Source: an uncultured bacterium
GTDB taxonomy: Bacteria > Fidelibacterota > Marinisomatia > Marinisomatales > UBA1611
DNA length: 15,171 bases
Direction: 5' to 3'
NCBI GenBank assembly: GCA_943788175.1
Contig: CALSPG010000011.1
Span: 1-15,171 of the forward strand
Part shown: positions 1 to 15,171 of the stretch, one piece after another
How the letters are laid out: each line of letters begins with the position of its first letter
How positions within the stretch are numbered: position 1 is the stretch's first letter
Notes under the pieces: generated by a model
The model's input: only the letters and a program-made list of their open reading frames with translations
Told to the model about the DNA's origin: nothing
The model's database searches: none
Translations under genes and position numbers: made by a program

Positions 1-33
1 GCAGATTATTTAACAGAATTTAAAAAAAGGTAA
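1..33 (+). CDS. 3' end of an upstream CDS (partial); possibly the PLP-dependent aminotransferase (AlaA-type) that often precedes hom in betaproteobacteria
   Basis: Frame 1 reads ADYLTEFKKR followed by TAA at 31-33, 8 nt before the hom ATG. The identity is guessed only from recalled synteny. Confidence 0.35.
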   Translation, partial: ADYLTEFKKR

Positions 34-41
34 AAATATAG

Positions 42-1346
42 ATGAACATAGGGTTAATTGGAATTGGTACCGTTGGTGGTGGAACATATCAAGTTTTAAA
101 AGAAAATGCAGAAGAAATATCGAATAAATCAGGCATAGAAATTAAAATTACCCACGTCGCCGACAAGAACCTAAAGCTTGCAAAAGAGACTGTAGATAAA
201 GAAACAATTATAGAGGAAGATGCATTCTCACTTATAGAGAACAGCAGTATTGATACAATTATAGAGTTAATTGGTGGAACGGGGATTGCACTAGATATTG
301 TTCGTAAAGCACTTGAAAATGGTAAGCATGTTGTGACAGCGAATAAAGCCTTAATTGCTATGCATGGCGAAGAGCTTTTCAAAATAGCTAATAAAAAAAA
401 TGTACTTCTTGCTTATGAAGCTGCTGTCGCAGGTGGAATACCAATCATTAAAGCGCTAAGAGAGGGATTGGCAGCAAATAAAGTTAATTGGGTTGCAGGT
501 ATTTTGAATGGAACTACAAACTATATCTTGACAGAAATGAAAGAAAATAATTTAACCTTCGATACCGCATTAAAGCAAGCACAAGATCTAGGTTTCGCAG
601 AGGCGGATCCTACATTCGATATCGAGGGGGTGGATGCAGCTCATAAGATCACAATTTTAGCTTCTATTGCATTTGGAATTCCTATAAATTTTGATGCTGT
701 GCACGTAGAAGGCATAAGCAACCTAAGCCAAAAAGATATCACTTATGCTGAGGAACTTGGTTACAAGATTAAACTTCTAGGTATCGCAAAATCACAGAAT
801 ACGGATGTTGAGATACGGGTGCATCCAACGCTGGTTCCTAAAAATAGATTGGTTGCCAATGTTGACGGCGCTATGAATGCGGTTCTGGTTCATGGAAATA
901 TGGTTGGACCGACACTCTATTATGGAGCAGGTGCAGGTGCAGAACCCACAGCAAGCGCAGTTGTTGCAGACGTAATTGATATTGCGAGACAAACAAAACT
1001 TTCACAAGATACACTCATTCCTTCACTTGGATTTATGCCAGATAAGATAAATGAAAAAAATGTTCTTTCTATTGAAAATATCTTTTCAGAATATTACCTT
1101 CGATTTACAATGAAAAATCAAGCAGGCTTGCTTGCCAAAATTACTAATATTTTTGCTGATCATGATATTTCTATAAATTCTATGGTGCATAAAGAAGTGC
1201 AAGAAAACAATCAAAATCCGGATATCTTCCTAATCACTTCTAAAACTAAAGAGGCAGACATAGATACCATCATTAGTGAAATTGAGCTTTTACCTGAGAA
1301 TATTGAAAAGGTTGTTAAAATTAGAACTGAAGAACTAAATAAGTAG
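42..1346 (+). CDS. hom: Homoserine dehydrogenase with C-terminal ACT domain
   Basis: N-terminal GIGTVGGG Rossmann motif; VVTANKAL, YEAAVAGGIP, GILNGTTNYIL, GFAEADPTFDIEGVDAAHK and GAGAGAEPTASAV motifs; ACT-like YYLRFTMKNQAGLLAKITNIF. Confidence 0.97.
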   Translation: MNIGLIGIGTVGGGTYQVLKENAEEISNKSGIEIKITHVADKNLKLAKETVDKETIIEEDAFSLIENSSIDTIIELIGGTGIALDIVRKALENGKHVVTANKALIAMHGEELFKIANKKNVLLAYEAAVAGGIPIIKALREGLAANKVNWVAGILNGTTNYILTEMKENNLTFDTALKQAQDLGFAEADPTFDIEGVDAAHKITILASIAFGIPINFDAVHVEGISNLSQKDITYAEELGYKIKLLGIAKSQNTDVEIRVHPTLVPKNRLVANVDGAMNAVLVHGNMVGPTLYYGAGAGAEPTASAVVADVIDIARQTKLSQDTLIPSLGFMPDKINEKNVLSIENIFSEYYLRFTMKNQAGLLAKITNIFADHDISINSMVHKEVQENNQNPDIFLITSKTKEADIDTIISEIELLPENIEKVVKIRTEELNK

Positions 1347-1349
1347 GAG
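1345..1349 (+). promoter_or_regulatory. Shine-Dalgarno for thrC, overlapping the hom stop codon
   Basis: AGGAG 5 nt upstream of the ATG at 1355. Confidence 0.75.
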
Positions 1350-1354
1350 CTTTA

Positions 1355-2779
1355 ATGAAGTACATATCAACAAGGGGAGAATCTCCCAAACTAAATTTTT
1401 CTGAGGTATTGCTTGGTGGTCTTGCACCTGATGGTGGATTATACCTTCCTGAGCATTACCCTAAATTTAAAGACGACGAGCTAAATGATATGCGAGATAT
1501 GTCTTATCAGGACTTAGCTTTTTATATTTTTGAAAAATTTATAGATGATATACCTTCGAATGATCTCAGGGAGATTGTTAATAAGACCTATAGCGCTGAA
1601 ATATTTTCTTATGCACGAGAAGAGCAAAAGGCAGTGGACATTACACCTACCTTACAATTAAAAAATAACTTATTTTTACTCTCATTATCGAATGGGCCTA
1701 CATTAGCATTTAAAGATATTGCGATGCAATTTTTGGGCCATATCTTCGAATACGTTTTAGAGAAGCAAGGGAAAACCCTAAACATACTTGGGGCAACCTC
1801 AGGGGACACGGGCCCAGCGGCAGAATATGCCATGAAAGGTAAAAAGGGGATTAAAGTATTTATGTTATCTCCGCATGGAACAATGAGTCCATTTCAGTCA
1901 GCACAAATGTATAGCCTGCAAGATACAAATATTTTTAACATAGCGATTAAAGGTGTTTTTGATGATTGCCAAGATATCGTAAAGGCTGTCTCAAATGACC
2001 TTGAATTCAAAAATTTAAATAAGATCGGTGCAGTGAACTCAATAAACTGGGGGCGCATTCTCGCTCAAATTGTTTATTATTTTAAGGGTTACTTTGACGT
2101 GACCAGTAAAAACAGTGAAAAAGTTGATTTTACTGTCCCAACAGGCAACTTTGGAAATATTTGTGCAGGGCACATTGCAAGAATGATGGGTTTACCAATC
2201 AATCATTTAGTTGTTGCTACCAATGAAAATGATGTTTTAGATGAATTTTTTAACACAGGACATTATGCTCCTAGATCTTCTGATGACACCTTTCAAACAT
2301 CAAGCCCATCTATGGACATTTCAAAAGCCTCAAATTTTGAGCGTTTTATTTTCGATTTATTTGGCCGAGACTCCAACACTTTGAATGCTCACTGGAAGAA
2401 GATTGACGGAGGAAAATCATTTAAATTAAAAGAAGAAGACTTTCAGAAAATTAAAGACTATGGCTTTGTGTCTTCCTCAAGTAAACATATCAATAGAATA
2501 GATTTTATTAGAAATATATATAACGATTATGGAGTGATAATTGACACACATACAGCCGATGGAGTTAAGGCAGCAATGGATCACTCAGTGCCAATCTATC
2601 CAATGATTGTTTTGGAGACTGCGCTTCCTGTTAAGTTTGAAAAATCAGTCTTTGAGGCGATTGGAGTTTACCCAAAGAGACCGGACACCCTTAAAGATTT
2701 AGAATTACTCGATCAAAGGTATGAGGTTTTTGAAAATAGCGTTGAGTCAGTAAAGAAATGCATTACCGATAATAGCTAG
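1355..2779 (+). CDS. thrC: Threonine synthase
   Basis: [25 protein letters not shown] (PLP lysine), [24 protein letters not shown] and [14 protein letters not shown] motifs; directly follows hom. Confidence 0.97.
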
Positions 2780-2780
2780 T

Positions 2781-3575
2781 ATGAATCAATACCTCACGCT
2801 GCTAGAACATGTAAAACAAAATGGGCAAAAAAAAGAGGATCGGACTGGAACAGGGACGATGTCAGTTTTTGGTTACCAGATGCGTTTTAATTTAAATGAA
2901 GGCTTCCCCTTACTGACAACAAAGAAAGTACATTTAAAATCAGTAATTTATGAACTTTTATGGTTTTTATCAGGCGATACAAATATTAAATTTTTGAAGG
3001 ATAATGGCGTATCTATCTGGGATGAGTGGGCAGACGAAAATGGTAATCTAGGTCCAGTATATGGTCATCAGTGGAGAAGTTGGCCCACCTCAGAAGGTAG
3101 GGAAATTGATCAAATATCTAATCTTATTAATCAAATTAAAAAAACTCCTGATTCGAGAAGGTTAATTGTTTCAGCATGGAACGTTGGCGAAATTAATAAG
3201 ATGAAATTACCACCATGCCATTGTTTCTTTCAATTTTATGTCGCGGATGGCAGACTTTCTTGCCAACTTTATCAAAGGAGCGCAGATATATTTCTTGGTG
3301 TCCCCTTTAATATTGCATCCTATGCACTCCTTACGCAAATGATAGCGCATGTATGTGACTTGGAATGTGGGGAATTTATTCATACCTTAGGCGATGCTCA
3401 TATATATACCAATCATATTGATCAGGTAAATGAACAGTTAGGTCGAAAACCTAAAAAACTTCCTCAAATAAAAATTAACCCATCAGTTAAGAATATTTTT
3501 GATTTTAAATATGAAGACTTTAGTTTGGAAGGTTATGATCCATACCCTCTTATTAAGGCGCCTGTCGCAGTCTAG
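2781..3575 (+). CDS. thyA: Thymidylate synthase
   Basis: 264 aa; [39 protein letters not shown] (catalytic Cys), [18 protein letters not shown] and C-terminal APVAV. Confidence 0.98.
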
Positions 3576-3577
3576 TG

Positions 3578-4060
3578 ATGAAGATTTCTATTGTCGTTGC
3601 AGCATCAGAAAATCTAGTCATCGGTTATAAAAATGCTCTCCCTTGGCATATATCTGAGGATCTCAAACACTTCAAGCAAATTACAATAAATCATAGTGTG
3701 GTTATGGGTAGAAAAACCTTTGAATCAATCGGAAAACCACTGAAAGAGAGAAGAAATATTGTTATAAGTAGAGACGGAACGCTCAAGATTGAAGGAGCCG
3801 AGGTTGTGAATTCATTAGATGAAGCAATTCATCGAACAAAAAATGAAAATGAGATTTTTATAATCGGAGGTGAGCAGATTTATAAAATAGCTATGCCTAT
3901 CGCTACACATATGCATGTTACGAAAGTCTATAACAATATAAAAGGGGATGCATTTTTTCCAGCTTTTGATGAAAATGAATGGAAAATATTAACTCAAAAA
4001 GATTCAGAGACAAATGAGGGATTAAAGTTTTCTTTTATAGAATATCAGAAAATAGTTTGA
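3578..4060 (+). CDS. folA: Dihydrofolate reductase (alternative GTG start at 3575 overlaps the thyA stop)
   Basis: IVVAASENLVIG, LPWHISEDLKHFK, VMGRKTFESIG, PLKERRNIVISR, IIGGEQIY and GDAFFP motifs; follows thyA through a TAGTGATG junction. Confidence 0.95.
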   Translation: MKISIVVAASENLVIGYKNALPWHISEDLKHFKQITINHSVVMGRKTFESIGKPLKERRNIVISRDGTLKIEGAEVVNSLDEAIHRTKNENEIFIIGGEQIYKIAMPIATHMHVTKVYNNIKGDAFFPAFDENEWKILTQKDSETNEGLKFSFIEYQKIV

Positions 4061-4062
4061 GA

Positions 4063-4422
4063 TTAAGCCTGCCTTGTTAAATAAGTGACTTTTATTTGTT
4101 TAGGTGAGAAATACTGTGTAACAACTTCCTTAACTTTTTCAATATCAAAAGACTTGCAGCTGAATATATCAATATAACTATCTCCGTTCAAGTCAACAAA
4201 GTGCCCTGTGATAGAAGACGTTTCAATTAATTGAACTAAGCTAAATCCGGCAGCATTAGGGTTGTCGGCTGCAAAATGTTCTATTTTTGGTTCACCACAG
4301 GCTACCATTTCTATCTTGCTTACTAATGCCCTTACAAATTGATCAATATTTTTTGATGACCTTACTTTGTCTAAATCACCACCCTTACAATCTAATATCA
4401 GATGATATCCCCAGTATTCCAA
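4063..4422 (-). CDS. S-adenosylmethionine decarboxylase (class 1B SpeD/SpeH)-like pyruvoyl-dependent decarboxylase proenzyme; substrate uncertain
   Basis: G-x-HLILD N-terminus, GFSLVQLIET|SSITGH and YIDIFSC motifs. Ser61, Ser69, His74 and Cys89 have the same spacing as T. maritima AdoMetDC Ser55/Ser63/His68/Cys83. TTG start with AGGAG (4438-4434) upstream. Confidence 0.85.
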   Translation of the reverse strand: MEYWGYHLILDCKGGDLDKVRSSKNIDQFVRALVSKIEMVACGEPKIEHFAADNPNAAGFSLVQLIETSSITGHFVDLNGDSYIDIFSCKSFDIEKVKEVVTQYFSPKQIKVTYLTRQA

Positions 4423-4452
4423 TTTAACTATTTCTCCTAAGTTATGTATTTT

Positions 4453-5019
4453 TTAAATCTTTGGTAAGGTAACTCCACTTTGACCCTGATATTTTCCACC
4501 TCTGTCTTTGTATGATGTTTCGCATACCTCATCAGATTCAAAAAATAAAACCTGAGCACAACCCTCTCCAGCATAAATTTTTGCAGGTAGAGGTGTGGTG
4601 TTACTAAACTCCAGCGTTACATATCCCTCCCATTCTGGTTCAAAAGGCGTAACGTTTACGATAATTCCACATCTTGCATATGTTGACTTACCTACGCATA
4701 TTGTAAGAATATTTCTAGGAATTTTAAAAAATTCAACCGTCCTCGCAAGTGCAAATGAATTTGGAGGAATAATACAATGGTCACCATTAAACTCAACAAA
4801 TGAATTTGGATCAAAAGATTTTGGGTCAACTATCGTGCTATTGATATTTGTGAATACTCTAAACTCAGGTGCACATCGAATATCATAGCCATAACTTGAT
4901 GTCCCATAGGATACAATTTTTTGCCCATCCAAATCTCTCACCATTTTGGGTTCGAATGGACTGATCATATCTTTTTCCTCAGCCATTTTACGAATCCATT
5001 TATCAGACTTAATTGCCAT
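4453..5019 (-). CDS. dcd: dCTP deaminase
   Basis: [47 protein letters not shown] and [11 protein letters not shown] motifs; 188 aa; TAGGAG SD before the ATG. Confidence 0.97.
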
Positions 5020-5069
5020 GTTTTCTCCTAAAAACTTATACGTAAATAGTGTATGTGAAAGTTAAAATT

Positions 5070-6488
5070 TTATTTTTTCCAAAATTGACCCTCATCCTCA
5101 AAAATAACTTTTGATTCTTCTGGATCAAATTCTCCAGGTTGGTATTGCGTAGGTTTAGATTTATCTTTACTCCAATAGTCAATAATTGGATCAACAAGCT
5201 TCCATGCAGCTTTTACCTCATCAATATGCAGAAATTTTGATTGGTCTCCACTTAACAGATCCAGCATCAATGTTTCATAAGCATCTATGGTTTCATCTCC
5301 TTCAATACGATTATTTCCCCTGAGCACAGTCTGTCTAAATTCATTCATATCAAGACCAGGTTGAAGGGTAGTTATCTCAAATGAAGTGCTTTCATTCGGT
5401 TGAATATTGATAGTTAACCAGTTCTCGTGATCTTTAAATTTAATAGAAATTGAAGTTGAGTTTTCATATAGTCTTTTTGCCGTCCTAAGATAAATAGGGA
5501 CCTTATTCCATCTTGAATTATTAATAAATAATTTAATGGCTGCATATGTTTCCACAACGCTATCTGGTTTTTCTACCTCTTCTAAATAACCTTTTACTGT
5601 TTCACCATTTAATTCGCCTGCTGCATATTGACCACGAAAAGCAAAATTTTCAATTTCATCTAATGGAATAGCCTCAATAGATTCTAGTAGTTTTATTTTT
5701 TCAAGTCTTACATCTTCTGGGCTCATTGAATTTGGCTTTTCCATAGTTACGAGTGCTAACATTTGCAGTAGATGACTTTGTATCATATCTCTAAGTGCGC
5801 CCGTTGCTTCATAAAAAACTGTTCGATCACCTACACCGAGCGTCTCATGGTTGGTGATTTGAATTTGTTCAATATGCTCACTGGACCAAAGTGGCTCCAA
5901 TACCCCATTTTTAAAACGGGTGGTCATAATATTTTGCAGTGAAAATTTTCCTAAGTAATGATCTATCCTATATATTTGATCTTCCTTAAGATGCTCTTCA
6001 ATCGAGGTTTGAAGTTCGATCGCACTTTTAAGGCATGTACCAAATGGCTTTTCAATTAAAACTCTTCTCCAATATTCTGACTCGTTGAGCAAATCAACTT
6101 CGGATAACTGTTTTACGATGAGAGCAAAATCTGAGGGCCTTACAGATAAGAAGAACGCTAAATTTTGGGGGAAAACATCTTTGTCTCCTAATCTTTTTGC
6201 AAACTTAATAAATGCCTCTGGGTCATCTGGTAGGTTGGCATGATAATAATTTCTTTTTATAAATCGCTCATAAACATTTTCATCATAAGACTTAAATTTT
6301 TCATCAAGCATCTGTTTGATATTGGAGTGCCATTCACTTTCATCGACCTCTTGCCTTCCTACAGATAATATTTTCATATTTTTAGGGAGTTTACCTGCTT
6401 TATCAAGATGAAAAAGACCCGGTATCAATTTTACTTTAGCTAAGTTACCTCTAGCACCAAATAAAACAAGCGTAGAATTGTCTATCAT
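5070..6488 (-). CDS. zwf: Glucose-6-phosphate 1-dehydrogenase
   Basis: FGARGNLA dinucleotide-binding motif, EKPFG, YRIDHYLGK, GALRDMIQSHLLQ, ETYAA and RWNKVPIYLRT; adjacent to gnd. Confidence 0.95.
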   Translation of the reverse strand: MIDNSTLVLFGARGNLAKVKLIPGLFHLDKAGKLPKNMKILSVGRQEVDESEWHSNIKQMLDEKFKSYDENVYERFIKRNYYHANLPDDPEAFIKFAKRLGDKDVFPQNLAFFLSVRPSDFALIVKQLSEVDLLNESEYWRRVLIEKPFGTCLKSAIELQTSIEEHLKEDQIYRIDHYLGKFSLQNIMTTRFKNGVLEPLWSSEHIEQIQITNHETLGVGDRTVFYEATGALRDMIQSHLLQMLALVTMEKPNSMSPEDVRLEKIKLLESIEAIPLDEIENFAFRGQYAAGELNGETVKGYLEEVEKPDSVVETYAAIKLFINNSRWNKVPIYLRTAKRLYENSTSISIKFKDHENWLTINIQPNESTSFEITTLQPGLDMNEFRQTVLRGNNRIEGDETIDAYETLMLDLLSGDQSKFLHIDEVKAAWKLVDPIIDYWSKDKSKPTQYQPGEFDPEESKVIFEDEGQFWKK

Positions 6489-6495
6489 CTCTAAA

Positions 6496-7410
6496 TTAAC
6501 CCCTTTTTTTCATTATATGACCACCAAATGCATTTCGCATAATAGAGAGTATTTTATAGCCGTAACCTTTTGATTTTTCCTGACTTCTAAATCTTACTTG
6601 AAGCGCCTGTGTGAGAACTGGAGCAGGTATTCCTTGTTCAATAGCTTCCACTGCTGTCCATCTGCCTTCACCAGAATCCGCAACGAATGGAGCAATTTCC
6701 TCTAAGTTTTGATCACTTTGTAGTGCTTCAGCTGTTAAATCTAAAAGCCAACTACGTACAACTGAACCGTGTCGCCAAAGCTCTGTTACTTTAGCAATAT
6801 CGATTGCAAACTCTTCTCTACCTTTAAGAAGCTCAAGTCCTTCAGCAAATGACTCCATCATTCCATACTCGATACCATTGTGAATCATCTTTGTAAAATG
6901 ACCTGACCCAACAGGTCCGACATGTAACCACCCATTTTGTGGCGTTGGAGCTAATGCTCTTAAGACAGGCTCTACAGATTTAGCAACCTCTAAAGAAGCA
7001 CCGACCATTAGGCAATACCCATTATCTAAACCCCAGACACCACCTGAAGTACCACAGTCCATAAAGCCAATATTATATTCCTCCAGCATCCTGCCCATTT
7101 TGATACTTTGTTTAAAGTTTGAATTTCCACCATCAACTATCACGTCACCTTCACTAAGAAGGGGAATAAGGTCTGCAATTTGTTTTTTTGTAATTTCACC
7201 AGCTGGCAACATCATCCAGACTATTTTTTGGCCCTCGAGCTTCGATAGCGCATCCTTAACTGACGATGATGGTATTAAGCTCTCATCAACCTCTAATTTT
7301 TTAATTATTTCTGGGTTATTGTCATAACCTACGACTGAAATACCATTTCTGATAAGTCTTGCCGACATATTTCCACCCATTTTCCCAAGCCCAAGCATTG
7401 CAATTTTCAT
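6496..7410 (-). CDS. gnd: 6-phosphogluconate dehydrogenase, decarboxylating, short (about 300 aa, YqeC/GntZ-like) type
   Basis: GLGKMG, WMMLPAG, VDGGNS, DCGTSGGVWG, GHFTKMIHNGIEYGMM, VADSGEGRWT and MRNAFGGH motifs. Confidence 0.95.
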   Translation of the reverse strand: MKIAMLGLGKMGGNMSARLIRNGISVVGYDNNPEIIKKLEVDESLIPSSSVKDALSKLEGQKIVWMMLPAGEITKKQIADLIPLLSEGDVIVDGGNSNFKQSIKMGRMLEEYNIGFMDCGTSGGVWGLDNGYCLMVGASLEVAKSVEPVLRALAPTPQNGWLHVGPVGSGHFTKMIHNGIEYGMMESFAEGLELLKGREEFAIDIAKVTELWRHGSVVRSWLLDLTAEALQSDQNLEEIAPFVADSGEGRWTAVEAIEQGIPAPVLTQALQVRFRSQEKSKGYGYKILSIMRNAFGGHIMKKRG

Positions 7411-7534
7411 TTTTTTCCCTTTGATGTAGGTTTATAATTTGTTAATCTTTTGGATTAATTTTTTTCTTTCAGAAAGATTGGCATTATACTCCAATCCTTT
7501 CAAAAGATAGTTTTGAATTTAACTAAGGAAATCT
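7411..7534. promoter_or_regulatory. Divergent promoter region for gnd-zwf and pgl
   Basis: 124-bp spacer between divergent starts. TATAAT on the - strand (7488-7483) overlaps TATACT on the + strand (7485-7490). AAGGA SD for pgl at 7525-7529. No clear -35 hexamers. Confidence 0.55.
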
Positions 7535-8212
7535 ATGTCTGTGAATGAAAATGATTGGCTTTTATGCTCAAGTCCAGAAGATTTTGAGCTTAAAGCGACA
7601 GAAATGATTGCAAATTATGCGAATGATGCCATTAGAACTAAAGGTCATTTTTCTCTTGTTTTAGCAGGGGGAAATACTCCAAAAAAAATTTATGAATCCT
7701 TATCAAAAAAAGATTGTGATTGGGGTAATTGGCATATTTATTTTGGAGATGAAAGATGCCTGCCTTCTAACGATAAAGATAGAAACAGTTTAATGGCAGA
7801 AAAAAGCTTTTTTTCAAAAGTCTCTATTCCAAAGAACCAAATCAATATTGTTCCTGCTGAACTCGGAATGAATGAAGGGGCTGAGGCCTATAACAAAAAA
7901 TTAAATTCAGATATGGTATTTGATCTTGTGCTCCTTGGATTAGGAGAGGATGCGCATACAGCAAGCATCTTTCCTAATTCTAAATTTGATGAAAATAAAC
8001 AAGCCGTCCCAATATCAAATGCTCCAAAACCACCAGAAAATAGAATTTCATTAACTCCACACAGACTAAGTATGGCAAATTTTGTAATTTTTTTAGTGAC
8101 GGGCAAAGACAAAAAAAATGCACTAGATAAATTTAAAAGTGCTGAAAATATCCCAGCCTCAAGGATCTCAGCGATTAAAAAATTAACTGTTTTAATTTCG
8201 GACGTTAACTAA
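7535..8212 (+). CDS. pgl: 6-phosphogluconolactonase
   Basis: LAGGNTP, YFGDERC, DRNS, FDLVLLGLGEDAHTASIFP, APKPPENRISLT and FLVTGKDK motifs. Confidence 0.95.
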   Translation: MSVNENDWLLCSSPEDFELKATEMIANYANDAIRTKGHFSLVLAGGNTPKKIYESLSKKDCDWGNWHIYFGDERCLPSNDKDRNSLMAEKSFFSKVSIPKNQINIVPAELGMNEGAEAYNKKLNSDMVFDLVLLGLGEDAHTASIFPNSKFDENKQAVPISNAPKPPENRISLTPHRLSMANFVIFLVTGKDKKNALDKFKSAENIPASRISAIKKLTVLISDVN

Positions 8213-9294
8213 GTATTTTTTTCTATAACGATTTTTGGAAATTTACTTGTATGATCCTCGCTATAATCTGCAACCTTAGCGGCCATTTTCATTGCTACTT
8301 CAGAAAAAATCTTTGTAATAGGGGAGTTATGATCATTAACGACTGTCGGTTTTCCATCATCTAAGTCTTCTCTTATTTTTATATCAAGTGGAAGACTGCC
8401 TAAAAGATCGACATCGTAATCTTTGCTCATTCTAGCTCCACCATCCTTTCCAAATATATGCTCCTCATTATTACATTTAGAGCATATATGGATTGCCATA
8501 TTTTCTATAATACCGAGAATTGGTACATTAACCTTTTCAAACATTTTCAAACCCCTTCTGGCATCAAGCAGTGAAATATCCTGGGGTGTTGTTACAATAA
8601 TTGCTCCGGTTACTGGAATTTTTTGTGCCAACGTAAGCTGTATATCCCCAGTCCCAGGTGGAAGGTCAATTAATAAATAATCAAGATTGTTCCATTTTGT
8701 TTCTCTTAATAATTGCTCAAGTGTTGATGTAACCATTGGCCCTCTCCAGACCATGGGTGTTTCCTGGTCAACTAAAAAACCAATAGACATGATTTGAATA
8801 TTGTGAGCTTTTATGGGATCCATTGTTTTACCGTCAGAACTACTTGGTTTTTGATTTATACCAAACATTGTTGGCTGACTGGGTCCATAAATATCAGCAT
8901 CTAGTATGCCTACATTTGCCCCTTCAGCTGAAAGGGCTAATGCCAAGTTTGCCGTGGCCGTTGATTTACCAACTCCACCCTTTCCAGAAGCTATCGCGAT
9001 GATATTTTTTACATTTGGTAAGGTTTCTACACCTGTTTGTACTTTATGTGATTGAACTTTAGTAGATATATTTATATTTATTTTATTCTTTGTGAAATCT
9101 TTTATACCTTCAAGAAGTATATTTTTAAATTCTTCGATTTTAGTTTCAGCATAAAAACCTAATTGCAGATCAATTTGAACATGATCTCCCGCACATTCAA
9201 TTTTTTTTATTGATTTTTCGGTGATGATTTGTTTATTTAAAATAGGAAAACTCATATCTTTTATGTAGTCTTCTATTTTTTTTTCTATTTCCAT
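8209..9294 (-). CDS. apbC: Fe-S cluster carrier ATPase ApbC/Mrp
   Basis: IASGKGGVGKST deviant Walker A, LDADIYGPS, MVWRGPM, DLPPGTGDIQLT, VTTPQD and ENM..CSKC; divergent from metG. Confidence 0.95.
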   Translation of the reverse strand: MEIEKKIEDYIKDMSFPILNKQIITEKSIKKIECAGDHVQIDLQLGFYAETKIEEFKNILLEGIKDFTKNKININISTKVQSHKVQTGVETLPNVKNIIAIASGKGGVGKSTATANLALALSAEGANVGILDADIYGPSQPTMFGINQKPSSSDGKTMDPIKAHNIQIMSIGFLVDQETPMVWRGPMVTSTLEQLLRETKWNNLDYLLIDLPPGTGDIQLTLAQKIPVTGAIIVTTPQDISLLDARRGLKMFEKVNVPILGIIENMAIHICSKCNNEEHIFGKDGGARMSKDYDVDLLGSLPLDIKIREDLDDGKPTVVNDHNSPITKIFSEVAMKMAAKVADYSEDHTSKFPKIVIEKNT

Positions 9295-9342
9295 TTTACG
9301 ATTCCATTTCTAAGGTTTTATAATGTGTATTAGCATTTTGTT

Positions 9343-9351
9343 TGCTAGAAT
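9343..9351 (+). promoter_or_regulatory. Candidate extended -10 promoter for metG
   Basis: TGcTAGAAT matches TGnTAnnnT. A second TAGAAT copy lies at 9361-9366. Confidence 0.4.
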
Positions 9352-9380
9352 AATGGATTATAGAATAATTTTTCCATCTA

Positions 9381-11045
9381 ATGCGTAAACTTCTTGTTAC
9401 TTCTGCTCTTCCTTATGCCAATGGCAGCATTCACCTAGGCCATTTGGTAGAATATATCCAGACTGATATTTGGGTTCGTTATCAAAAGATGTCAGGCAAC
9501 GAAACATATTACATATGTGCGGATGATACGCACGGCACGCCAATAATGCTTAAAGCAGAAGAAGAAAAAATTTCACCAGATGAGTTAGTCAAAAAAGTGC
9601 ATCAAGAACATGATTTAGATTTTAAAGAGTTTAATGTGAATTTCGATCATTTTTATTCTACAAATTCAATTGAAAATAAGGAGTTATCCGAGTCTATTTA
9701 TAATGAATTAAATGACAACGGTAAGATTTTATCGAAGGACATTGATCAGTTTTTTGATGAATCAAAACAAATGTTTTTACCTGATAGATTTATAAAGGGT
9801 GTGTGTCCTAAATGTAAGGCAGAGGATCAATATGGAGATTCATGTGAAAAATGCGGGGCGACTTATAGCCCAACAGACTTAATAAATGCATATTCAGTTC
9901 TTTCAGGGACAAAGCCTATTAAAAAGAAAACGCTTCACTACTTTTTCAAGCTCTCTGAATGTGCAGAATTTTTAAAGGGATGGATAGAAAATGACACCCT
10001 TCAACCCGAGGCTGTAAATAAGCTCAAGGAATGGTTTGAAATGGGTCTTCAGGATTGGGATATAACTCGTGATGCGCCATATTTTGGATTTGAGATTCCT
10101 AATGCGCCTGGTAAATATTTTTATGTATGGTTAGATGCCCCGATAGGTTATATGGCTAGTTTTAAGAAATTTGCTGAAATGAACAATTTGTCGTTCGATG
10201 AATTTTGGAAAAAAGGAAGCTCAACAGAATTAATTCATTTTATTGGTAAGGATATTTTATATTTCCATGCACTTTTTTGGCCAGCGACTTTAAATTACTC
10301 AAACCATAGAACGCCTACTAAAATATTTACGCATGGATTTTTAACGGTTAACGGTGAGAAGATGTCAAAGTCCAGAGGCACATTTATAACAGCAAGGAGT
10401 TATCTTGAGCACATAAAAGACCCAAATTTTCTAAGGTATTACTATGCTACAAAATTAAATTCTTCAATGGAAGACCTAGATTTAAATCTCGAAGACTTTG
10501 TTGCTAAAAATAATAGTGATTTAATTGGAAAATTTATAAATATTCCTAGTCGAACATCAGGGTTTGTAGGTAAATTTTTCAATCATAAGCTTATGCCATC
10601 GGCTTCAATAAAGTCTGAAGAGGGACTTGCGATATTAAAAAAAATTAAGGATGCCAAAAAGATTATAGATGAACACTATGAAGCTAGAGAATACAGCAAA
10701 TTAGTGAAATTTATTATGCAGTTAATTGAGGAGATAAATGAATATATCAGTAAAACTGAGCCTTGGAAGTTAGCAAAAGAGGAAGGACAATTAAAAGATG
10801 ATTCATCTTTGCATGAGATTTGTTCGGTTTGCCTTAAATCTTTTAGATCACTTTCAATATTCTTGACGCCAATCATTCCTAATCTTTGTGAAAAAATTGC
10901 TGCTTTTTATGACGAAGAATCTTTCAATAGTTTTAATTTAATTGAAGATGACGTATTAAAAATTAAATCTTATAAGCATCTTTTAAAGAGAATAGAGCAA
11001 GACTCAATTGATTCGATGGTTTCATCCAATAGGGCAGAAGAGTAA
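9381..11045 (+). CDS. metG: Methionyl-tRNA synthetase (short form, no C-terminal tRNA-binding domain)
   Basis: ALPYANGSIHLGH (HIGH motif), CPKC..CEKC zinc knuckle, YVWLDAPIGY, FIGKDILYFH and KMSKS. Confidence 0.98.
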   Translation: MRKLLVTSALPYANGSIHLGHLVEYIQTDIWVRYQKMSGNETYYICADDTHGTPIMLKAEEEKISPDELVKKVHQEHDLDFKEFNVNFDHFYSTNSIENKELSESIYNELNDNGKILSKDIDQFFDESKQMFLPDRFIKGVCPKCKAEDQYGDSCEKCGATYSPTDLINAYSVLSGTKPIKKKTLHYFFKLSECAEFLKGWIENDTLQPEAVNKLKEWFEMGLQDWDITRDAPYFGFEIPNAPGKYFYVWLDAPIGYMASFKKFAEMNNLSFDEFWKKGSSTELIHFIGKDILYFHALFWPATLNYSNHRTPTKIFTHGFLTVNGEKMSKSRGTFITARSYLEHIKDPNFLRYYYATKLNSSMEDLDLNLEDFVAKNNSDLIGKFINIPSRTSGFVGKFFNHKLMPSASIKSEEGLAILKKIKDAKKIIDEHYEAREYSKLVKFIMQLIEEINEYISKTEPWKLAKEEGQLKDDSSLHEICSVCLKSFRSLSIFLTPIIPNLCEKIAAFYDEESFNSFNLIEDDVLKIKSYKHLLKRIEQDSIDSMVSSNRAEE

Positions 11046-11046
11046 A

Positions 11047-11739
11047 TTAATTGTTTAACTGATTGTGCAGCCTAAGTAATGCTTCCTGAGGATTTATATC
11101 GCCTGTAATAGGCCTACCAATAACTAAAATATCAGAGCCAAAATTAACTGCATCAATTGGGTTTGCAGCTCGCTTTTGGTCGTCATTATTTATTTTATCC
11201 AGCCTTATCCCAGGTGTAATAAACATAAAATTATTTGGAAGATACTGACGAATATTAGGTATGTCTGGGGCTGCACAAACTATGCCATCAAGACCACTTT
11301 CTGCGGCGTTTATAGCCAGTTTTTTTACGCAGTCATCAACTGAGCCAGTCAGGCCTACTTCTGTCATAAAATTTATATCATGACTTGTTAATAGTGTAAC
11401 TCCAATCAATTTTATTTGTTGATTAGAAACAGCATTTTTGGCTGCTGACATCATTTCTTTACCACCCAGTGAGTGAACATTTATTATGTCTACATTCAAC
11501 CTTGCAGCTGCCTCACATGCTTTCACAACGGTATTGGGAATGTCGTGAAACTTTAAGTCTAGAAATACTTCAAATCCTTCACTTTTAACCCACTGGACAA
11601 TTTCTGGCCCGCAGGAAGTAAACAGCTCTTTACCAATTTTTATTCCACAATATTTATTATTAAGTTGACCTATTAATTTTTTAGCATTTTCTATTGAGTG
11701 TGTATCAATTGCTACAAAAATATCAGTTTTTTTGGTCAT
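11047..11739 (-). CDS. pyrF: Orotidine 5'-phosphate decarboxylase
   Basis: VAID, KIGKEL, FLDLKFHDIPNTV, GVTLLTS, TPGIR, DDQKR and VIGRPIT motifs. Confidence 0.97.
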   Translation of the reverse strand: MTKKTDIFVAIDTHSIENAKKLIGQLNNKYCGIKIGKELFTSCGPEIVQWVKSEGFEVFLDLKFHDIPNTVVKACEAAARLNVDIINVHSLGGKEMMSAAKNAVSNQQIKLIGVTLLTSHDINFMTEVGLTGSVDDCVKKLAINAAESGLDGIVCAAPDIPNIRQYLPNNFMFITPGIRLDKINNDDQKRAANPIDAVNFGSDILVIGRPITGDINPQEALLRLHNQLNN

Positions 11740-11743
11740 CTAT

Positions 11744-12916
11744 CTAATTTTCTAAAGTAATATCAATTGGTTCTGATGGGAGTGACTCCCATGCATTACA
11801 GCCTGGACATTGCCAATGAAATTGCTTTGCTTTAAAGCCACATTGATTGCAATTAAAAAATCTTCTTTCGCCAATTGAATTTTTAACAGTTTGCTGAATT
11901 AGTTCAATACTTTCAATTTCGTTTGTTTTTTTTATGGTGAGGACTTGAAATAAATGGTCGAGAGAAAATAGGCTTGGCCTTTGTATTAATTCATTTCGTG
12001 CTATTTCTTCTGCTCTTTCAACTCCCTCATTTTTTAATACAAGATCGTAAAGTGAGTTAAGAATTGTTCTAAGTTTATATAGGTCATAGTATCTTGAAAG
12101 TATAGATAGTGCTTCATTTATGTTATTTTGTGTTTCATAAACAGAAATAATTTTTTGCATGACCAACCCAAGATATTCTGGTTGTTGGTACTCAATTTTT
12201 TTCCAATATAGGATAGCATCATCATATTTTTTTTCTTCATAAGCAATATCTCCAAGCAGTATATTAGCGCGCACACAATTTTTAGATTCTTCAAGTGCTT
12301 TCTTAAGATATGTTCTTGCTAGGCCATATTTTTTGTTCATAAGGTTATTTGTAGCTAATTCACAAAAATAATGACTTATTGCAATTCTGAAGGATACTCC
12401 AGAAATTTTCTCTAAGTCAGATGCAGAATCGATTGCTTTATCCCAATCTCTTTCCCTAACGTATATTTCTCTTAGTAAATTTAAAGAGTATTGGTAATAT
12501 TTTTCATTTTTGAGTTCTCTTAATATAGATTCACTTCTGCCATAAAGCCCAGCCATGAAATAGTCTTGAGCCAATTCAGCTTTTATTGAGTCCTCTTGTT
12601 CAGCAGAAATTTCTCTTTTATTTAATAGGGCAATGTGTAGGTTTATTGCTTTGTCATACTTACCCTCTCGTCTTAAAACTGAACCAAGGGCAAAATGTAT
12701 TTCTAGGGAATCATTTTTTAATTTGACCGCTTTTTCAAGTTCAGTTATGGCGTTCTCATTTTGATTAGAGTTGAGATATGAGAGTGCTTTAAAGAGGGAG
12801 GCTGGAAGATCTGTGCTTTCCGAAATGATCTGTTTAATATCAACACGAGCAGAGACCCACCCTAGGATAAAGAATAAAGGTATAACTAATAACCACCAAA
12901 ATTCAAATTCGATCAT
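11744..12916 (-). CDS. lapB: Lipopolysaccharide assembly protein B (YciM)
   Basis: N-terminal TM segment (FWWLLVIPLFFILGW), TPR-like repeats (ELAQDYFMAGLYGRSE, HYFCELA, CVRANILLG) and C-terminal rubredoxin-like CNQCGF..WQCPGC; lies between ihfB and pyrF. Confidence 0.93.
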   Translation of the reverse strand: MIEFEFWWLLVIPLFFILGWVSARVDIKQIISESTDLPASLFKALSYLNSNQNENAITELEKAVKLKNDSLEIHFALGSVLRREGKYDKAINLHIALLNKREISAEQEDSIKAELAQDYFMAGLYGRSESILRELKNEKYYQYSLNLLREIYVRERDWDKAIDSASDLEKISGVSFRIAISHYFCELATNNLMNKKYGLARTYLKKALEESKNCVRANILLGDIAYEEKKYDDAILYWKKIEYQQPEYLGLVMQKIISVYETQNNINEALSILSRYYDLYKLRTILNSLYDLVLKNEGVERAEEIARNELIQRPSLFSLDHLFQVLTIKKTNEIESIELIQQTVKNSIGERRFFNCNQCGFKAKQFHWQCPGCNAWESLPSEPIDITLEN

Positions 12917-12924
12917 ATGTTTTC

Positions 12925-12968
12925 AAAAAAAAACATATTCAAATATGTAAAAAATGAATATGTTTTTT
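12925..12968 (-). terminator. Candidate intrinsic terminator/attenuator after ihfB
   Basis: Perfect 14-bp inverted repeat AAAAAACATATTCA (12928-12941) / TGAATATGTTTTTT (12955-12968). On the - strand the 3' arm runs into a 9-T tract. The stem is very AU-rich. Confidence 0.5.
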
Positions 12969-12984
12969 ATAAATTACACTAATA

Positions 12985-13263
12985 TTATTTATCAACTTTT
13001 ATTTTTAATTCTTTACCAGGTTTGAAATGCGGTACAAATTTTTCAGGTACATTGACTTTTTCACCTGTTTTTGGATTTCTTCCGAGCCTAGCTGGCCTAT
13101 GATTTAGACTAAAGCTTCCAAAACCCCTGATCTCAACTCTACCACCATTACTTAAAGTATTGCCAAGTGAATCAATAATTGTTTTTACAGAAAGCTCTGC
13201 GTCCTTGTGGACGAGCTGTGAAAACTTTTCAGAAAGTTGTGTTATTAATTCAGATTTAGTCAT
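12985..13263 (-). CDS. ihfB: Integration host factor beta subunit
   Basis: [27 protein letters not shown] and [16 protein letters not shown] overlap with the rpsA stop. Confidence 0.97.
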
Positions 13264-14741: not shown

Positions 14742-14839
14742 TTTATATTTTATATACCTTCATTTGATCTCATCTAGCGATGAGCTTATTAAAAAAAACC
14801 TAATAAATTTGGTGTCTATTAGATCACTTAGTTTTTTTA
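14742..14839 (-). promoter_or_regulatory. Structured rpsA leader / cmk-rpsA spacer
   Basis: Hairpin CTCATC-(4 nt)-GATGAG at 14769-14784. A second stem CTAATA/TATTAG (14800-14805/14817-14822) is followed by a T8 tract on the - strand. An AU-rich stretch precedes the ATG with no well-placed SD. Confidence 0.5.
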
Positions 14840-15171
14840 TTACTCTTTACCTTTTATTATCTCCATTACTTTTTCAAACGACTGGTTTATGCTTAAATTA
14901 TCGGTTTTAATTAAATAAGCATCTTTAGCAGTCTTAAGAGGTGATATTTTTCTGTTAGTATCACTTTCATCTCTTAATTTAATTCTCTCAATTAGGTCGG
15001 ACAGATTAACATTGTTCTCCTTTAATATCAACTGTTTATATCTTCTATTCGCACGCTCTTCTATGCTAGCAGTAAGGAAAATTTTAACTTTAGCCTCTGG
15101 GAAAACTACCGTTCCCATGTCTCGGCCGTCAGCTACCAGTCCAGGTGGTTTAAAGAAAGACTTTTGGAGTC
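14840..15171 (-). CDS. cmk: Cytidylate kinase, 3' part (runs off the window edge)
   Basis: The frame stays open beyond the ORF-track start: [48 protein letters not shown]. Lies directly upstream of rpsA. Confidence 0.95.

What the first reader, a model, noticed from the sequence alone, without database searches (positions are those of the whole stretch)
4063..4422. SpeD-like proenzyme that lacks its adenosyl-binding residues: candidate pyruvoyl ornithine/arginine decarboxylase
Seen: the protein reads GFSLVQLIET-SSITGHFVDLNG..DIFSC, whereas class 1B AdoMetDCs typically read G.S....ISE|SH..IHTWPE....D..TC. Ser61, Ser69 (pyruvoyl precursor), His74 and Cys89 align with T. maritima Ser55/Ser63/His68/Cys83, so autoprocessing should be intact. 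The cleavage site is T|S rather than E|S, and the positions matching Trp70 and Glu72 are Val76 and Leu78. No spermidine synthase gene is present in the window. Established: Trp70 and Glu72 contact the adenine and ribose of AdoMet in the T. maritima enzyme. SpeD homologues neofunctionalised to L-ornithine or L-arginine decarboxylases have been described in bacteria, archaea and marine phages. Betaproteobacteria typically make putrescine and 2-hydroxyputrescine. Inference: this is a minimal PLP-independent putrescine/agmatine-forming enzyme, not an AdoMetDC.
Basis: partly seen in the sequence, partly recalled or inferred. Interest (0 to 1): 0.75.

Follow-up and report, generated by a model that had tools for sequence, protein, structure and literature searches.

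The report
Small pyruvoyl ornithine decarboxylase (SpeDC-type)
This 119-residue gene is a diverged relative of S-adenosylmethionine decarboxylase that most likely makes putrescine from ornithine without vitamin B6, a kind of enzyme first described in 2023 and here found in a streamlined marine methylotroph.

Summary
The ORF is real: 4063-4422, minus strand, 119 aa. It is strongly conserved and folds like class 1b AdoMetDC. It keeps the self-processing residues Ser61, Ser69, His74 and Cys89. It lacks the E-S-H and HTWPE motifs of true AdoMetDCs.

It belongs to a large clade (531 cluster representatives at E<=1e-10) with a near-invariant Gln64, Thr68|Ser69, His74-Phe75 and Tyr83. This fits the Gln/Thr/Phe/Tyr signature that Li et al. 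2023 give for SpeDC, the pyruvoyl L-ornithine decarboxylases.

Members sit beside, or are fused to, a canonical SpeD and SpeE. They often occur in genomes with no other ornithine or arginine decarboxylase.

The window is a mis-binned contig of an OM43-type Methylophilaceae. In that lineage the gene is syntenic and single-copy. ArgJ is present. No PLP-dependent ornithine or arginine decarboxylase was found (the only PLP-fold hit, checked in one genome, is LysA), and no agmatine-to-putrescine enzymes.

Caveats:
- No biochemically characterised SpeDC sequence could be aligned.
- The nearest characterised relative, phage phiN3 SpeD, is reported as an AdoMetDC.
- OM43 carries an aminopropyltransferase-like gene of unknown function.

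Verdict: new member of a known kind.

The parts
4063..4422 (-). SpeDC-type proenzyme gene, 119 aa, TTG start. Predicted beta chain is Met1-Thr68. Predicted alpha chain is pyruvoyl-Ser69 to Ala119.
   Evidence: ORF. PF02675 66.4 bits. AlphaFold2 model pLDDT 95.3. Best Foldseek match is T. maritima AdoMetDC 1vr7, TM 0.85, rmsd 1.8 A.
4216..4221 (-). Codons of Thr68 and Ser69. This is the predicted self-cleavage site, and Ser69 is the pyruvoyl precursor.
   Evidence: Aligns with Glu62-Ser63 of T. maritima AdoMetDC. Thr and Ser are invariant in 80 of 80 related loci. Cleavage itself is inferred.
4198..4203 (-). Codons of His74 (processing and catalysis) and Phe75 (signature residue).
   Evidence: His74 = T. 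maritima His68. His is present in 80 of 80 loci. Position 75 is Phe in 74 of 80 and Leu in 6.
4231..4233 (-). Codon of Gln64 (signature residue).
   Evidence: Invariant in 80 of 80 loci. Canonical SpeDs have V, T, A or I here.
4174..4176 (-). Codon of Tyr83 (signature residue).
   Evidence: Invariant in 80 of 80 loci. The HTVC201P arginine decarboxylase has Gln here, and canonical SpeDs have small or other residues.
4156..4158 (-). Codon of Cys89 (catalytic proton donor by homology).
   Evidence: Aligns with T. maritima Cys83. Invariant.
4432..4437 (-). Shine-Dalgarno AGGAGA, 9 nt before the TTG start.
   Evidence: Read directly from the sequence.
4453..5019 (-). dcd (dCTP deaminase), 30 nt upstream on the same strand. 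Probably co-transcribed. Not functionally linked.
   Evidence: PF22769 126.9 bits. The order folA | gene | dcd is kept in 16 Methylophilaceae-type loci. RNA-library contigs span both genes, which does not prove one transcript.

Best explanation
The gene encodes a SpeDC-type, pyruvoyl-dependent L-ornithine decarboxylase.

Proposed mechanism:
- The 119-aa proenzyme cleaves itself between Thr68 and Ser69. Ser69 becomes an N-terminal pyruvoyl group on the 51-residue alpha chain.
- His74 and Cys89 serve processing and catalysis, as in class 1b AdoMetDC.
- The pyruvoyl carbonyl forms a Schiff base with the alpha-amino group of L-ornithine. CO2 leaves and putrescine is released.

In the OM43-type Methylophilaceae that carry it, ornithine comes from the ArgJ cycle. 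This enzyme is the only recognisable route to a polyamine. It stands in for the roughly 750-aa PLP-dependent SpeC-type enzyme of related bacteria.

Shown here: the gene, its fold, the conserved processing residues, loss of the AdoMetDC motifs, clade membership, and genomic context.

Inferred: self-cleavage, ornithine as substrate, putrescine as product.
For: 1. Not a standard AdoMetDC.
- TIGR03330 scores 33.2 against a cut-off of 75.65.
- Canonical SpeDs from the same gene clusters score 122-134 bits.
- E-S-H is replaced by T-S-S, and HTWPE by HFVDL.

2. Signature.
- Li et al. 2023 (Results read in full) state that SpeDC is told from AdoMetDC and from the arginine decarboxylases by four conserved central residues, in the order Gln, Thr, Phe, Tyr.
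- This protein has Gln64, Thr68, Phe75 and Tyr83.
- Gln, Thr and Tyr are invariant in 80 of 80 related loci. Phe is present in 74 of 80.
- About 160 of 185 domain sequences share the pattern.
- The characterised arginine decarboxylase of phage HTVC201P has Gln and Thr, but Ser and Gln at the last two positions.

3. Tree (185 rows, 124 columns), rooted on canonical SpeDs.
- HTVC201P is sister to the whole Gln-Thr-Ser clade (SH-aLRT 92 and 88).
- This matches the published description of the SpeDC clade.

4. Architecture.
- Six representatives are fusions of a canonical ESH domain followed by a domain of this clade. One has the reverse order.
- The Thr-Ser serine lies 48-50 residues from the C-terminus.
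- The characterised SpeD-SpeDC fusion has its ornithine-decarboxylase serine at 229 of 278.

5. Context in 25 genomes that carry the gene.
- 14 have a strong SpeE, and 13 of those also have a separate canonical SpeD.
- The gene order clade-member / SpeE / canonical SpeD is seen in G172 and G173.
- 6 of the 14 have no AR-fold or AAT-fold decarboxylase at all.
- None of the 25 has PvlArgDC. Only 2 have AguA.
- 4 of 4 tested arginase-fold proteins of Chlamydiae and Verrucomicrobia score as arginase (204-212 bits), not agmatinase (55-86 bits).

6. OM43 lineage (6 genomes, one complete).
- One PF02675 copy per genome.
- The only AR-fold protein, checked in the complete genome G152 alone, is LysA at 504 bits.
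- No PF01276 match over the family cut-off in 5 of 6; G153 has one marginal hit, 24.1 bits, counted over cut-off only with its neighbours.
- No arginase fold, no AguA, and ArgJ in 6 of 6.
- In the surrounding order, 101 of 121 sampled genomes have a SpeC-type PF01276 protein. The OM43 genome does not.

7. The gene is syntenic in 16 Methylophilaceae-type loci at 66-99% identity.
Against: - No biochemically characterised SpeDC sequence could be fetched. Identity with the published SpeDC clade therefore rests on the paper's text, on two landmark phage proteins and on architecture. Figure 8 of the paper was not visible, so the mapping of the four residues to positions 64, 68, 75 and 83 is my inference.
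- The closest characterised relative by sequence is Sinorhizobium phage phiN3 SpeD (37% identity, E 1e-21). It is reported to restore spermidine in an E. coli speD mutant (passages read). In my tree it nests inside the clade with weak support. It differs at the cleavage site: D-S-H against T-S-S.
- OM43 genomes hold a 271-aa aminopropyltransferase-like gene. It scores 260 bits on NF003380 against a cut-off of 304, and 50.7 bits on PF01564. If it uses decarboxylated AdoMet, no other AdoMetDC candidate exists there.
- Fusions of this domain with SpeE occur in both orders. They fit a supplier of either SpeE substrate. Pelagibacter AdoMetDC-SpeE fusions have a working AdoMetDC domain.
- G169 has a strong SpeE but only this type of SpeD homologue.
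- G172 has an agmatinase-like protein.
Confidence: 0.68

Rival explanations
1. It is a bona fide, if divergent, AdoMetDC. It supplies decarboxylated AdoMet to the PRK04457-like aminopropyltransferase of OM43, as phage phiN3 SpeD appears to do in E. coli.
For: - phiN3 SpeD is the nearest characterised relative and is reported to complement a speD mutant.
- OM43 genomes have an aminopropyltransferase-like gene and no other PF02675 copy.
- Domains of this clade are fused to SpeE in both orders.
Against: - 13 of 14 SpeE-bearing genomes already have a canonical SpeD next to or besides this gene. Fusions to a canonical SpeD domain also exist, which would make a second AdoMetDC redundant.
- It lacks E-S-H and the Pro of HTWPE. 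Li et al. 2023 report that Pro as fully conserved in true AdoMetDCs.
- phiN3 keeps an acidic residue at -1 and His at +1. None of the 80 loci has His at +1.
- The PRK04457-like gene occurs in 67 of 121 sampled genomes of the order that have no PF02675 homologue. Its glycine loop reads GLGGAA rather than the GGGDGG seen in the SpeE part of P0133.
- OM43 would still lack any diamine source.
Confidence: 0.1
2. It is an L-arginine decarboxylase (SpeDA-like) that makes agmatine.
For: - The sister lineage HTVC201P is an arginine decarboxylase.
- One phage enzyme of the ornithine-decarboxylase group acts on both substrates.
- G172 has an agmatinase-like protein.
Against: - OM43 genomes have no agmatinase fold, no AguA and no SpeY/DHS-type route that I could find, so agmatine would be a dead end.
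- Phe75 and Tyr83 separate this clade from HTVC201P.
- The arginase-fold partners in Chlamydiae and Verrucomicrobia score as arginase, which makes ornithine.
Confidence: 0.08
3. It decarboxylates another amino compound, such as L-2,4-diaminobutyrate, L-lysine or a carboxylated polyamine intermediate.
For: - Substrate was not tested.
- The residue after the pyruvoyl serine varies (S, A, N) across the clade.
- Fusions to a CxxCxxCC domain (PF03692) are unexplained.
Against: - None of the characterised homologues used L-lysine.
- Linkage to SpeE and SpeD, and the lack of any other putrescine source, fit ornithine best.
Confidence: 0.08
4. It is a non-catalytic relic or a regulatory subunit, like a prozyme.
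For: Degraded SpeDC domains exist in some fusion proteins.
Against: - All processing and catalytic residues are invariant in 80 of 80 loci.
- Identity across OM43 loci is similar to that of the neighbouring housekeeping genes.
- The model is confident, with pLDDT 95.3.
Confidence: 0.03

Closest known systems
SpeDC, pyruvoyl-dependent L-ornithine decarboxylases derived from AdoMetDC (Li, Liang, Phillips, Michael, J Biol Chem 2023, PMC10407285)
   Same: - Size: 117-197 aa for the characterised enzymes, 119 aa here.
- Class 1b AdoMetDC fold, with conserved Ser, His and Cys.
- Gln, Thr, Phe and Tyr in the central region.
- Occurs as the only SpeD homologue without SpeE, or as a second homologue beside SpeD and SpeE, or fused behind a canonical SpeD.
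- Host genomes lack other ornithine or arginine decarboxylases.
   Different: - The taxa are new: OM43 Methylophilaceae (Betaproteobacteria), many Chlamydiae, Verrucomicrobia, and Alpha- and Gammaproteobacteria are not among the phyla the paper names.
- Fusions to SpeE and to a CxxCxxCC domain are not described in the parts of the paper I read.
- No sequence-level comparison with a characterised SpeDC was possible here.
Sinorhizobium phage phiN3 SpeD (YP_009212407.1)
   Same: - 37% identical.
- Shares Gln, Phe, Tyr and the 6-residue insertion that canonical SpeDs lack.
- Falls inside the same clade in my tree.
   Different: - Reported as a working AdoMetDC.
- Has Asp-Ser-His at the cleavage site where this protein has Thr-Ser-Ser.
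Pelagibacter phage HTVC201P SpeDA (AXH71538.1), a pyruvoyl L-arginine decarboxylase
   Same: - Shares Gln, the Glu-Thr-Ser cleavage motif and the N-terminal insertion.
- Is sister to the clade.
   Different: - 26% identical.
- Has His after the serine, and Ser and Gln where this protein has Phe75 and Tyr83.
- Acts on arginine.
Thermotoga maritima AdoMetDC, class 1b (PDB 1tlu, 1vr7)
   Same: - Same fold: TM 0.85, rmsd 1.8 A.
- Same processing residues: Ser55, Ser63, His68 and Cys83.
   Different: - 20-22% identity.
- Glu62, His64, Thr69, Trp70, Pro71 and Glu72 are replaced by Thr, Ser, Phe, Val, Asp and Leu.
SpeC-type PLP-dependent ornithine decarboxylase (PF01276)
   Same: Proposed to catalyse the same reaction. 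It is present in 101 of 121 sampled genomes of the order and missing from the OM43 genome.
   Different: Unrelated fold, about 750-790 aa, and needs PLP.

Membership tests
AdoMet_dc superfamily (PF02675, class 1b fold) | Significant match to the family profile | tested here: met
   66.4 bits against a cut-off of 25, covering 1-106 of 107 profile positions.
AdoMet_dc superfamily (PF02675, class 1b fold) | Alpha-beta sandwich fold of class 1b AdoMetDC | tested here: met
   AlphaFold2 pLDDT 95.3. Foldseek best match 1vr7, TM 0.85.
AdoMet_dc superfamily (PF02675, class 1b fold) | Processing and catalytic Ser, His and Cys (T. maritima Ser63, His68, Cys83) | tested here: met
   Ser69, His74 and Cys89 align without gaps. 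Invariant in 80 of 80 loci.
Bona fide AdoMetDC (SpeD, TIGR03330 equivalog) | Score above the curated equivalog cut-off | tested here: not met
   33.2 bits against 75.65. Canonical neighbours score 122-134 bits.
Bona fide AdoMetDC (SpeD, TIGR03330 equivalog) | Conserved Pro after the catalytic His (HTWPE), reported as fully conserved in true AdoMetDCs | tested here: not met
   The position is Asp77. The criterion comes from the text of Li et al. 2023.
Bona fide AdoMetDC (SpeD, TIGR03330 equivalog) | Obligatory partner spermidine synthase in the genome | tested here: inconclusive
   OM43 genomes have only a PRK04457-like protein, below cut-off at 260 against 304 bits. That family occurs in 67 of 121 sampled genomes without any PF02675 gene.
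SpeDC (pyruvoyl L-ornithine decarboxylase) | Four diagnostic conserved residues Gln, Thr, Phe, Tyr in the central region | tested here: met
   Gln64, Thr68, Phe75 and Tyr83, in that order. Conserved in 80, 80, 74 and 80 of 80 loci. Caveat: the exact columns of the paper's Figure 8 could not be seen.
SpeDC (pyruvoyl L-ornithine decarboxylase) | Falls in the single clade of characterised SpeDC proteins | tested here: inconclusive
   No characterised SpeDC sequence was retrievable. Indirectly, HTVC201P is sister to the clade and phiN3 lies inside it, as the two papers describe for the ornithine-decarboxylase clade.
SpeDC (pyruvoyl L-ornithine decarboxylase) | Anomalous genomic setting: no SpeE, or two SpeD homologues; no canonical ODC or ADC; no agmatine-to-putrescine enzymes | tested here: met
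SpeDC (pyruvoyl L-ornithine decarboxylase) | Decarboxylates L-ornithine but not AdoMet, L-arginine or L-lysine | not testable with these tools
   Needs an enzyme assay.
SpeDA (pyruvoyl L-arginine decarboxylase) | Host encodes SpeB or AguA/AguB to use agmatine | tested here: not met
   0 of 6 OM43 genomes have an arginase-fold or PAD_porph protein.

The most novel reading that the evidence does not exclude
The OM43 enzyme is bifunctional, decarboxylating both L-ornithine and AdoMet. Its phage relative phiN3 keeps AdoMetDC activity inside the same clade. Together with the PRK04457-like aminopropyltransferase it would form a two-gene spermidine pathway, the smallest known, in a streamlined ocean bacterium.
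Probability: 0.07. Interest if true: 0.75.

Novelty: new member of a known kind. Interest (0 to 1): 0.4.

Why it matters
- If the assignment holds, abundant coastal OM43 methylotrophs make their only polyamine with a 119-residue, PLP-free enzyme. Their relatives use a roughly 750-residue PLP enzyme. This would be a clear case of non-orthologous displacement that fits genome streamlining.
- It extends the SpeDC family to Betaproteobacteria, Chlamydiae and Verrucomicrobia.
- It corrects a widespread database label. Sources name these proteins S-adenosylmethionine decarboxylase.
- The SpeE fusions and the phiN3 exception give handles on how substrate choice is set in this fold.

Tried and rejected
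- **Inventory of the assembly that holds the window**. It found no SpeE, only LysA, and no agmatinase or DHS. I set it aside because the contig does not belong to that genome. The gene was found in 0 of 4 same-genus and 0 of 27 same-family genomes searched. The window's dcd was found in 0 of 5 relatives. Divergent second copies of rpsA, metG and mrp lie on other contigs.
- **Clusters on contigs C7 and C8 of that assembly**: a Rieske oxygenase, saccharopine-dehydrogenase-like proteins and a PAD_porph-like protein. I considered them as putrescine-modifying genes. I dropped them for the same reason.
- **Linking to characterised proteins by name or accession**. The 27 proteins looked up returned no characterised accession.
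- **Fused forms**. The search found no named Pelagibacter fusion, so I cannot say whether that characterised AdoMetDC domain belongs to this clade.
- **Supplementary files** of Li et al. 2023 were closed. They may hold the alignment that would settle the residue mapping.
- **The Bale and Ealick review** is not held.
- **PF01536 (class 2 AdoMetDC)**. The search is uninformative because its controls were silent.
- **Promoter scan**. It found 7 sites against 5.8 +/- 2.4 expected, which is no signal.
- **Reads**. Contigs from 4 of 4 seawater RNA libraries cover the gene at 95% identity or more. Contigs cannot show transcription, strand or level.
- **Earlier findings of the scan**. Nothing was returned.
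Full report
**The observation**

The window holds an ORF at 4063..4422 on the minus strand. It is 119 aa with a TTG start. An AGGAGA sits 9 nt upstream.

The protein matches Pfam AdoMet_dc over its whole length (66.4 bits). It reaches only 33.2 bits on NCBI's AdoMetDC equivalog, whose cut-off is 75.65.

A profile of the family aligns to T. maritima AdoMetDC (1tlu) without gaps from Ser55 to Cys83. Ser61, Ser69, His74 and Cys89 take the places of Ser55, Ser63, His68 and Cys83. Thr68, Ser70, Phe75, Val76, Asp77 and Leu78 replace Glu62, His64, Thr69, Trp70, Pro71 and Glu72.

An AlphaFold2 model is confident, with pLDDT 95.3. Its best structural match is the T. maritima enzyme, with TM 0.85 and rmsd 1.8 A.

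I could not check the claim that Trp70 and Glu72 touch the adenosyl group. The review is not held.

**Whose gene it is**

The assembly that holds the window (G000, 12 contigs) is not a sound basis for genome-wide arguments.
- The gene was found in none of 4 same-genus and none of 27 same-family genomes searched.
- The window's dcd was found in none of 5 relatives.
- G000 has second, very different copies of rpsA (43% identity), metG (26%) and mrp (36%) on other contigs.

The window is 99.1% identical over 14,422 nt to locus L018, whose record title names a Methylophilaceae MAG. It is 85.7% identical to L020, a complete 1.36-Mb Methylophilaceae chromosome.

The order hom-thrC-thyA-folA-gene-dcd-zwf-gnd-pgl-mrp-metG recurs in Methylophilaceae/OM43-type loci. 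Sixteen of them have both flanking genes, and one more is cut by a contig end. Identities of 66-99% are in line with the neighbouring genes.

So the contig is an OM43-type fragment mis-binned in G000. I therefore set aside my first inventory of G000.

**The family**

One search gave 1772 homologues at E<=0.001 among 1775 candidates. An exhaustive HMMER search gave 1241 cluster representatives at E<=0.001 and 531 at E<=1e-10.

In the species-genome collection, 406 stretches encode a relative. The best 80 come from Methylophilaceae/OM43, about two dozen Chlamydiae, Verrucomicrobia, Alpha- and Gammaproteobacteria, Actinomycetota and others.

In all 80 loci, Gln64, Thr68, Ser69, His74, Tyr83 and Cys89 are invariant. 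Phe75 is present in 74 and is Leu in 6. The residue after the serine is Ser, Ala, Asn or Leu, and never His.

Canonical SpeDs read x-E-S-H...H-T-W-P-E at the same columns.

**Link to what is known**

Li et al. 2023 (PMC10407285; abstract, Results and part 1 of 2 of the Discussion read) showed that many SpeD homologues are pyruvoyl L-ornithine decarboxylases (SpeDC) or L-arginine decarboxylases (SpeDA). They state four things.
- SpeDC forms one clade, which also holds the phage HTVC201P arginine decarboxylase.
- SpeDC is recognised by four conserved central residues, named in the order Gln, Thr, Phe, Tyr.
- A Pro is fully conserved in true AdoMetDCs.
- SpeD-SpeDC fusion proteins carry the ornithine decarboxylase in the C-terminal domain, at Ser229 of 278.

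The companion paper (PMC9992855; passages read) reports that phage ornithine decarboxylases cluster with one true AdoMetDC, that of Sinorhizobium phage phiN3.

I fetched phiN3 SpeD, HTVC201P SpeDA and the phiYS40 AdoMetDC from phage records.
- The window's protein has Gln64, Thr68, Phe75 and Tyr83, and lacks the Pro.
- HTVC201P has the Gln and Thr, but Ser and Gln at the last two positions.
- phiN3 has Gln, Phe and Tyr, but Asp-Ser-His at the cleavage site.

I built a tree of 185 domain sequences on 124 columns, with a quick IQ-TREE search and SH-aLRT support. The rows came from three sources: 149 representatives, 11 further database proteins, and references and genome-derived copies. Seven fragments under 95 aa were left out.

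Rooted on canonical SpeDs, the tree places branches in this order:
- a pair with ESH motifs (95);
- HTVC201P with HTVC104P (92);
- the whole Gln-Thr-Ser clade (88), with phiN3-type sequences nested inside at weak support.

This is the topology the two papers describe.

Six representatives are fusions of a canonical domain followed by a domain of this clade, and one has the reverse order. Their Thr-Ser serine lies 48-50 residues from the C-terminus. The figure is 50 in the window's protein and 49 in the published fusion.

I could not obtain any characterised SpeDC sequence. The identification is therefore indirect.

**Context in genomes that truly carry the gene**

I searched 25 genomes, reached through the loci.
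- A strong SpeE (over 150 bits) is present in 14.
- 13 of those 14 have a second, canonical PF02675 gene scoring 95-128 bits, beside the clade member at 65-80 bits.
- In G172 and G173 the order is clade member, SpeE, canonical SpeD.
- In G175 the clade domain is fused to SpeE in a 440-aa protein, 4 kb from a canonical SpeD-SpeE pair.
- Fusions to SpeE exist in both orders in metagenomes.
- Of the 14 SpeE-bearing genomes, 6 have no AR-fold and no AAT-fold decarboxylase at all. Three more have a single AR-fold protein. In the one case tested, that protein is LysA.
- PvlArgDC is found in 0 of 25, and AguA in 2 of 25.
- Arginase-fold proteins occur in 11 of 25. The 4 tested from Chlamydiae and Verrucomicrobia score as arginase (204-212 bits, cut-off 227.6) far above agmatinase (55-86 bits).
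- Those lineages lack ArgJ, which was found in 0 of 13. Arginase would therefore be their source of ornithine.

**The OM43 lineage**

Six genomes were searched, one of them complete.
- There is one PF02675 gene.
- There is one AR-fold protein. In the complete genome G152, the one checked, it is LysA at 504 bits against a cut-off of 298.
- No PF01276 match stands over the cut-off in 5 of 6; G153 has a marginal 24.1-bit hit that the tool counts over cut-off only with its neighbours.
- There is no arginase fold, AguA or PvlArgDC.
- No protein of homospermidine-synthase or carboxyspermidine-dehydrogenase size was found in the 5 of the 6 searched.
- ArgJ is present in 6 of 6.
- In a sample of 121 genomes of the same order, 101 have a SpeC-type PF01276 protein at E<=1e-30. 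The OM43 genome does not.

Ornithine to putrescine by this enzyme is thus the one complete route that can be drawn.

One of those 121 genomes, G201, is flagged unpublished. It enters only the tallies.

**What speaks against this reading**

- phiN3 SpeD is the nearest characterised relative (37% identity) and is reported as an AdoMetDC.
- OM43 genomes hold a 271-aa aminopropyltransferase-like protein. It scores 260 bits on NF003380 against a cut-off of 304, and 50.7 bits on PF01564. If it uses decarboxylated AdoMet, it would need an AdoMetDC.
- Against that, the same family is matched in 108 of 121 genomes of the order, while PF02675 is matched in only 41. So 67 genomes have it without any AdoMetDC homologue.
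- Its glycine loop reads GLGGAA, where the SpeE part of P0133 reads GGGDGG. That the Asp marks binding of decarboxylated AdoMet is my recollection, not a result here.
- SpeE fusions fit either role. Pelagibacter AdoMetDC-SpeE fusions have an active AdoMetDC domain (PMC11107197; passages read). I could not tell whether that domain is of this clade.
- G169 has SpeE with only this type of SpeD homologue.

**Expression**

Contigs from 4 of 4 seawater RNA libraries, from four studies, cover the gene at 95% identity or more. One 1051-nt contig spans 4016-5066, and one 1294-nt contig spans 3959-5100. The tool warns that this does not prove transcription.

**Verdict**

The most likely function is a SpeDC-type pyruvoyl L-ornithine decarboxylase (about 0.68).

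It is a new member of a known kind. It has an ecological twist, in that a tiny PLP-free enzyme replaces SpeC in a streamlined marine methylotroph. It also leaves an open question about the phiN3-type exception.

Noticed in passing
window 1-15171 (= contig C11 of G000): The contig looks mis-binned. It is 99.1% identical to a Methylophilaceae-titled locus (L018). Meanwhile G000 has divergent second copies of rpsA, metG and mrp, and its same-genus relatives lack the window's dcd and SpeD-like genes.
   Followed up: yes
L024 (8070-nt contig titled Flammeovirgaceae MAG): It carries the OM43 gene order hom-thrC-thyA-folA-gene-dcd at 59-95% identity. It is probably another OM43 fragment binned into a Bacteroidota MAG.
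   Followed up: partly
L099:1654-2976 (-); P0132, P0133, P0142, P0144, P0145, P0147-P0149: Single proteins join a domain of this clade to a full spermidine synthase. Both orders occur: SpeD-like then SpeE, and SpeE then SpeD-like.
   Followed up: partly
P0124-P0127, P0129 (242-258 aa); P0122: The domain is fused to a CxxCxxCC putative metal-binding domain (PF03692) in 5 proteins. In one protein it is fused to PF00893. The function is unexplained.
   Followed up: no
P0230 (2224 aa), residues 272-384: A very long protein contains one domain of this clade at 44% identity. I did not examine it.
   Followed up: no
L023 and L035 (Chlamydiae-titled loci) against OM43 loci: Chlamydial copies are 68-74% identical to the OM43 protein. 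Only 1 of 121 sampled genomes of the OM43 order, G152 itself, has the low-scoring clade type. This suggests horizontal transfer between these lineages.
   Followed up: partly
G168 (complete chromosome), G163, G166: These genomes have a higher-scoring PF02675 gene (90-103 bits) as well as the clade member, but no PF01564 match. They may hold a second neofunctionalised SpeD.
   Followed up: no
L098:1740-2555 (+) in G152, and 108 of 121 genomes of its order: A PRK04457-like 'polyamine aminopropyltransferase' family is near-universal in the order. 67 of those genomes have no AdoMetDC homologue. Its real substrate is open.
   Followed up: partly
G000 C7:276033-279374 (L003) and C8:108495-111884 (L004): Two clusters lie in the main bin. 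One has a saccharopine-dehydrogenase-like protein (like PH1688), a Rieske oxygenase alpha subunit and an ADI-like protein. The other has a 487-aa PAD_porph-like protein, far below agmatine deiminase cut-offs, next to a 411-aa Sacchrp_dh_NADP protein with no PDB or NCBIfam match.
   Followed up: partly
L011:1486-4264 (Microcystis phage MaAM05): This phage carries a four-gene cluster: canonical speH_2, a diverged speH_1 with the clade's insertion but an E-S-H site, then speE and speB. It looks like a phage-borne arginine-to-spermidine pathway.
   Followed up: no
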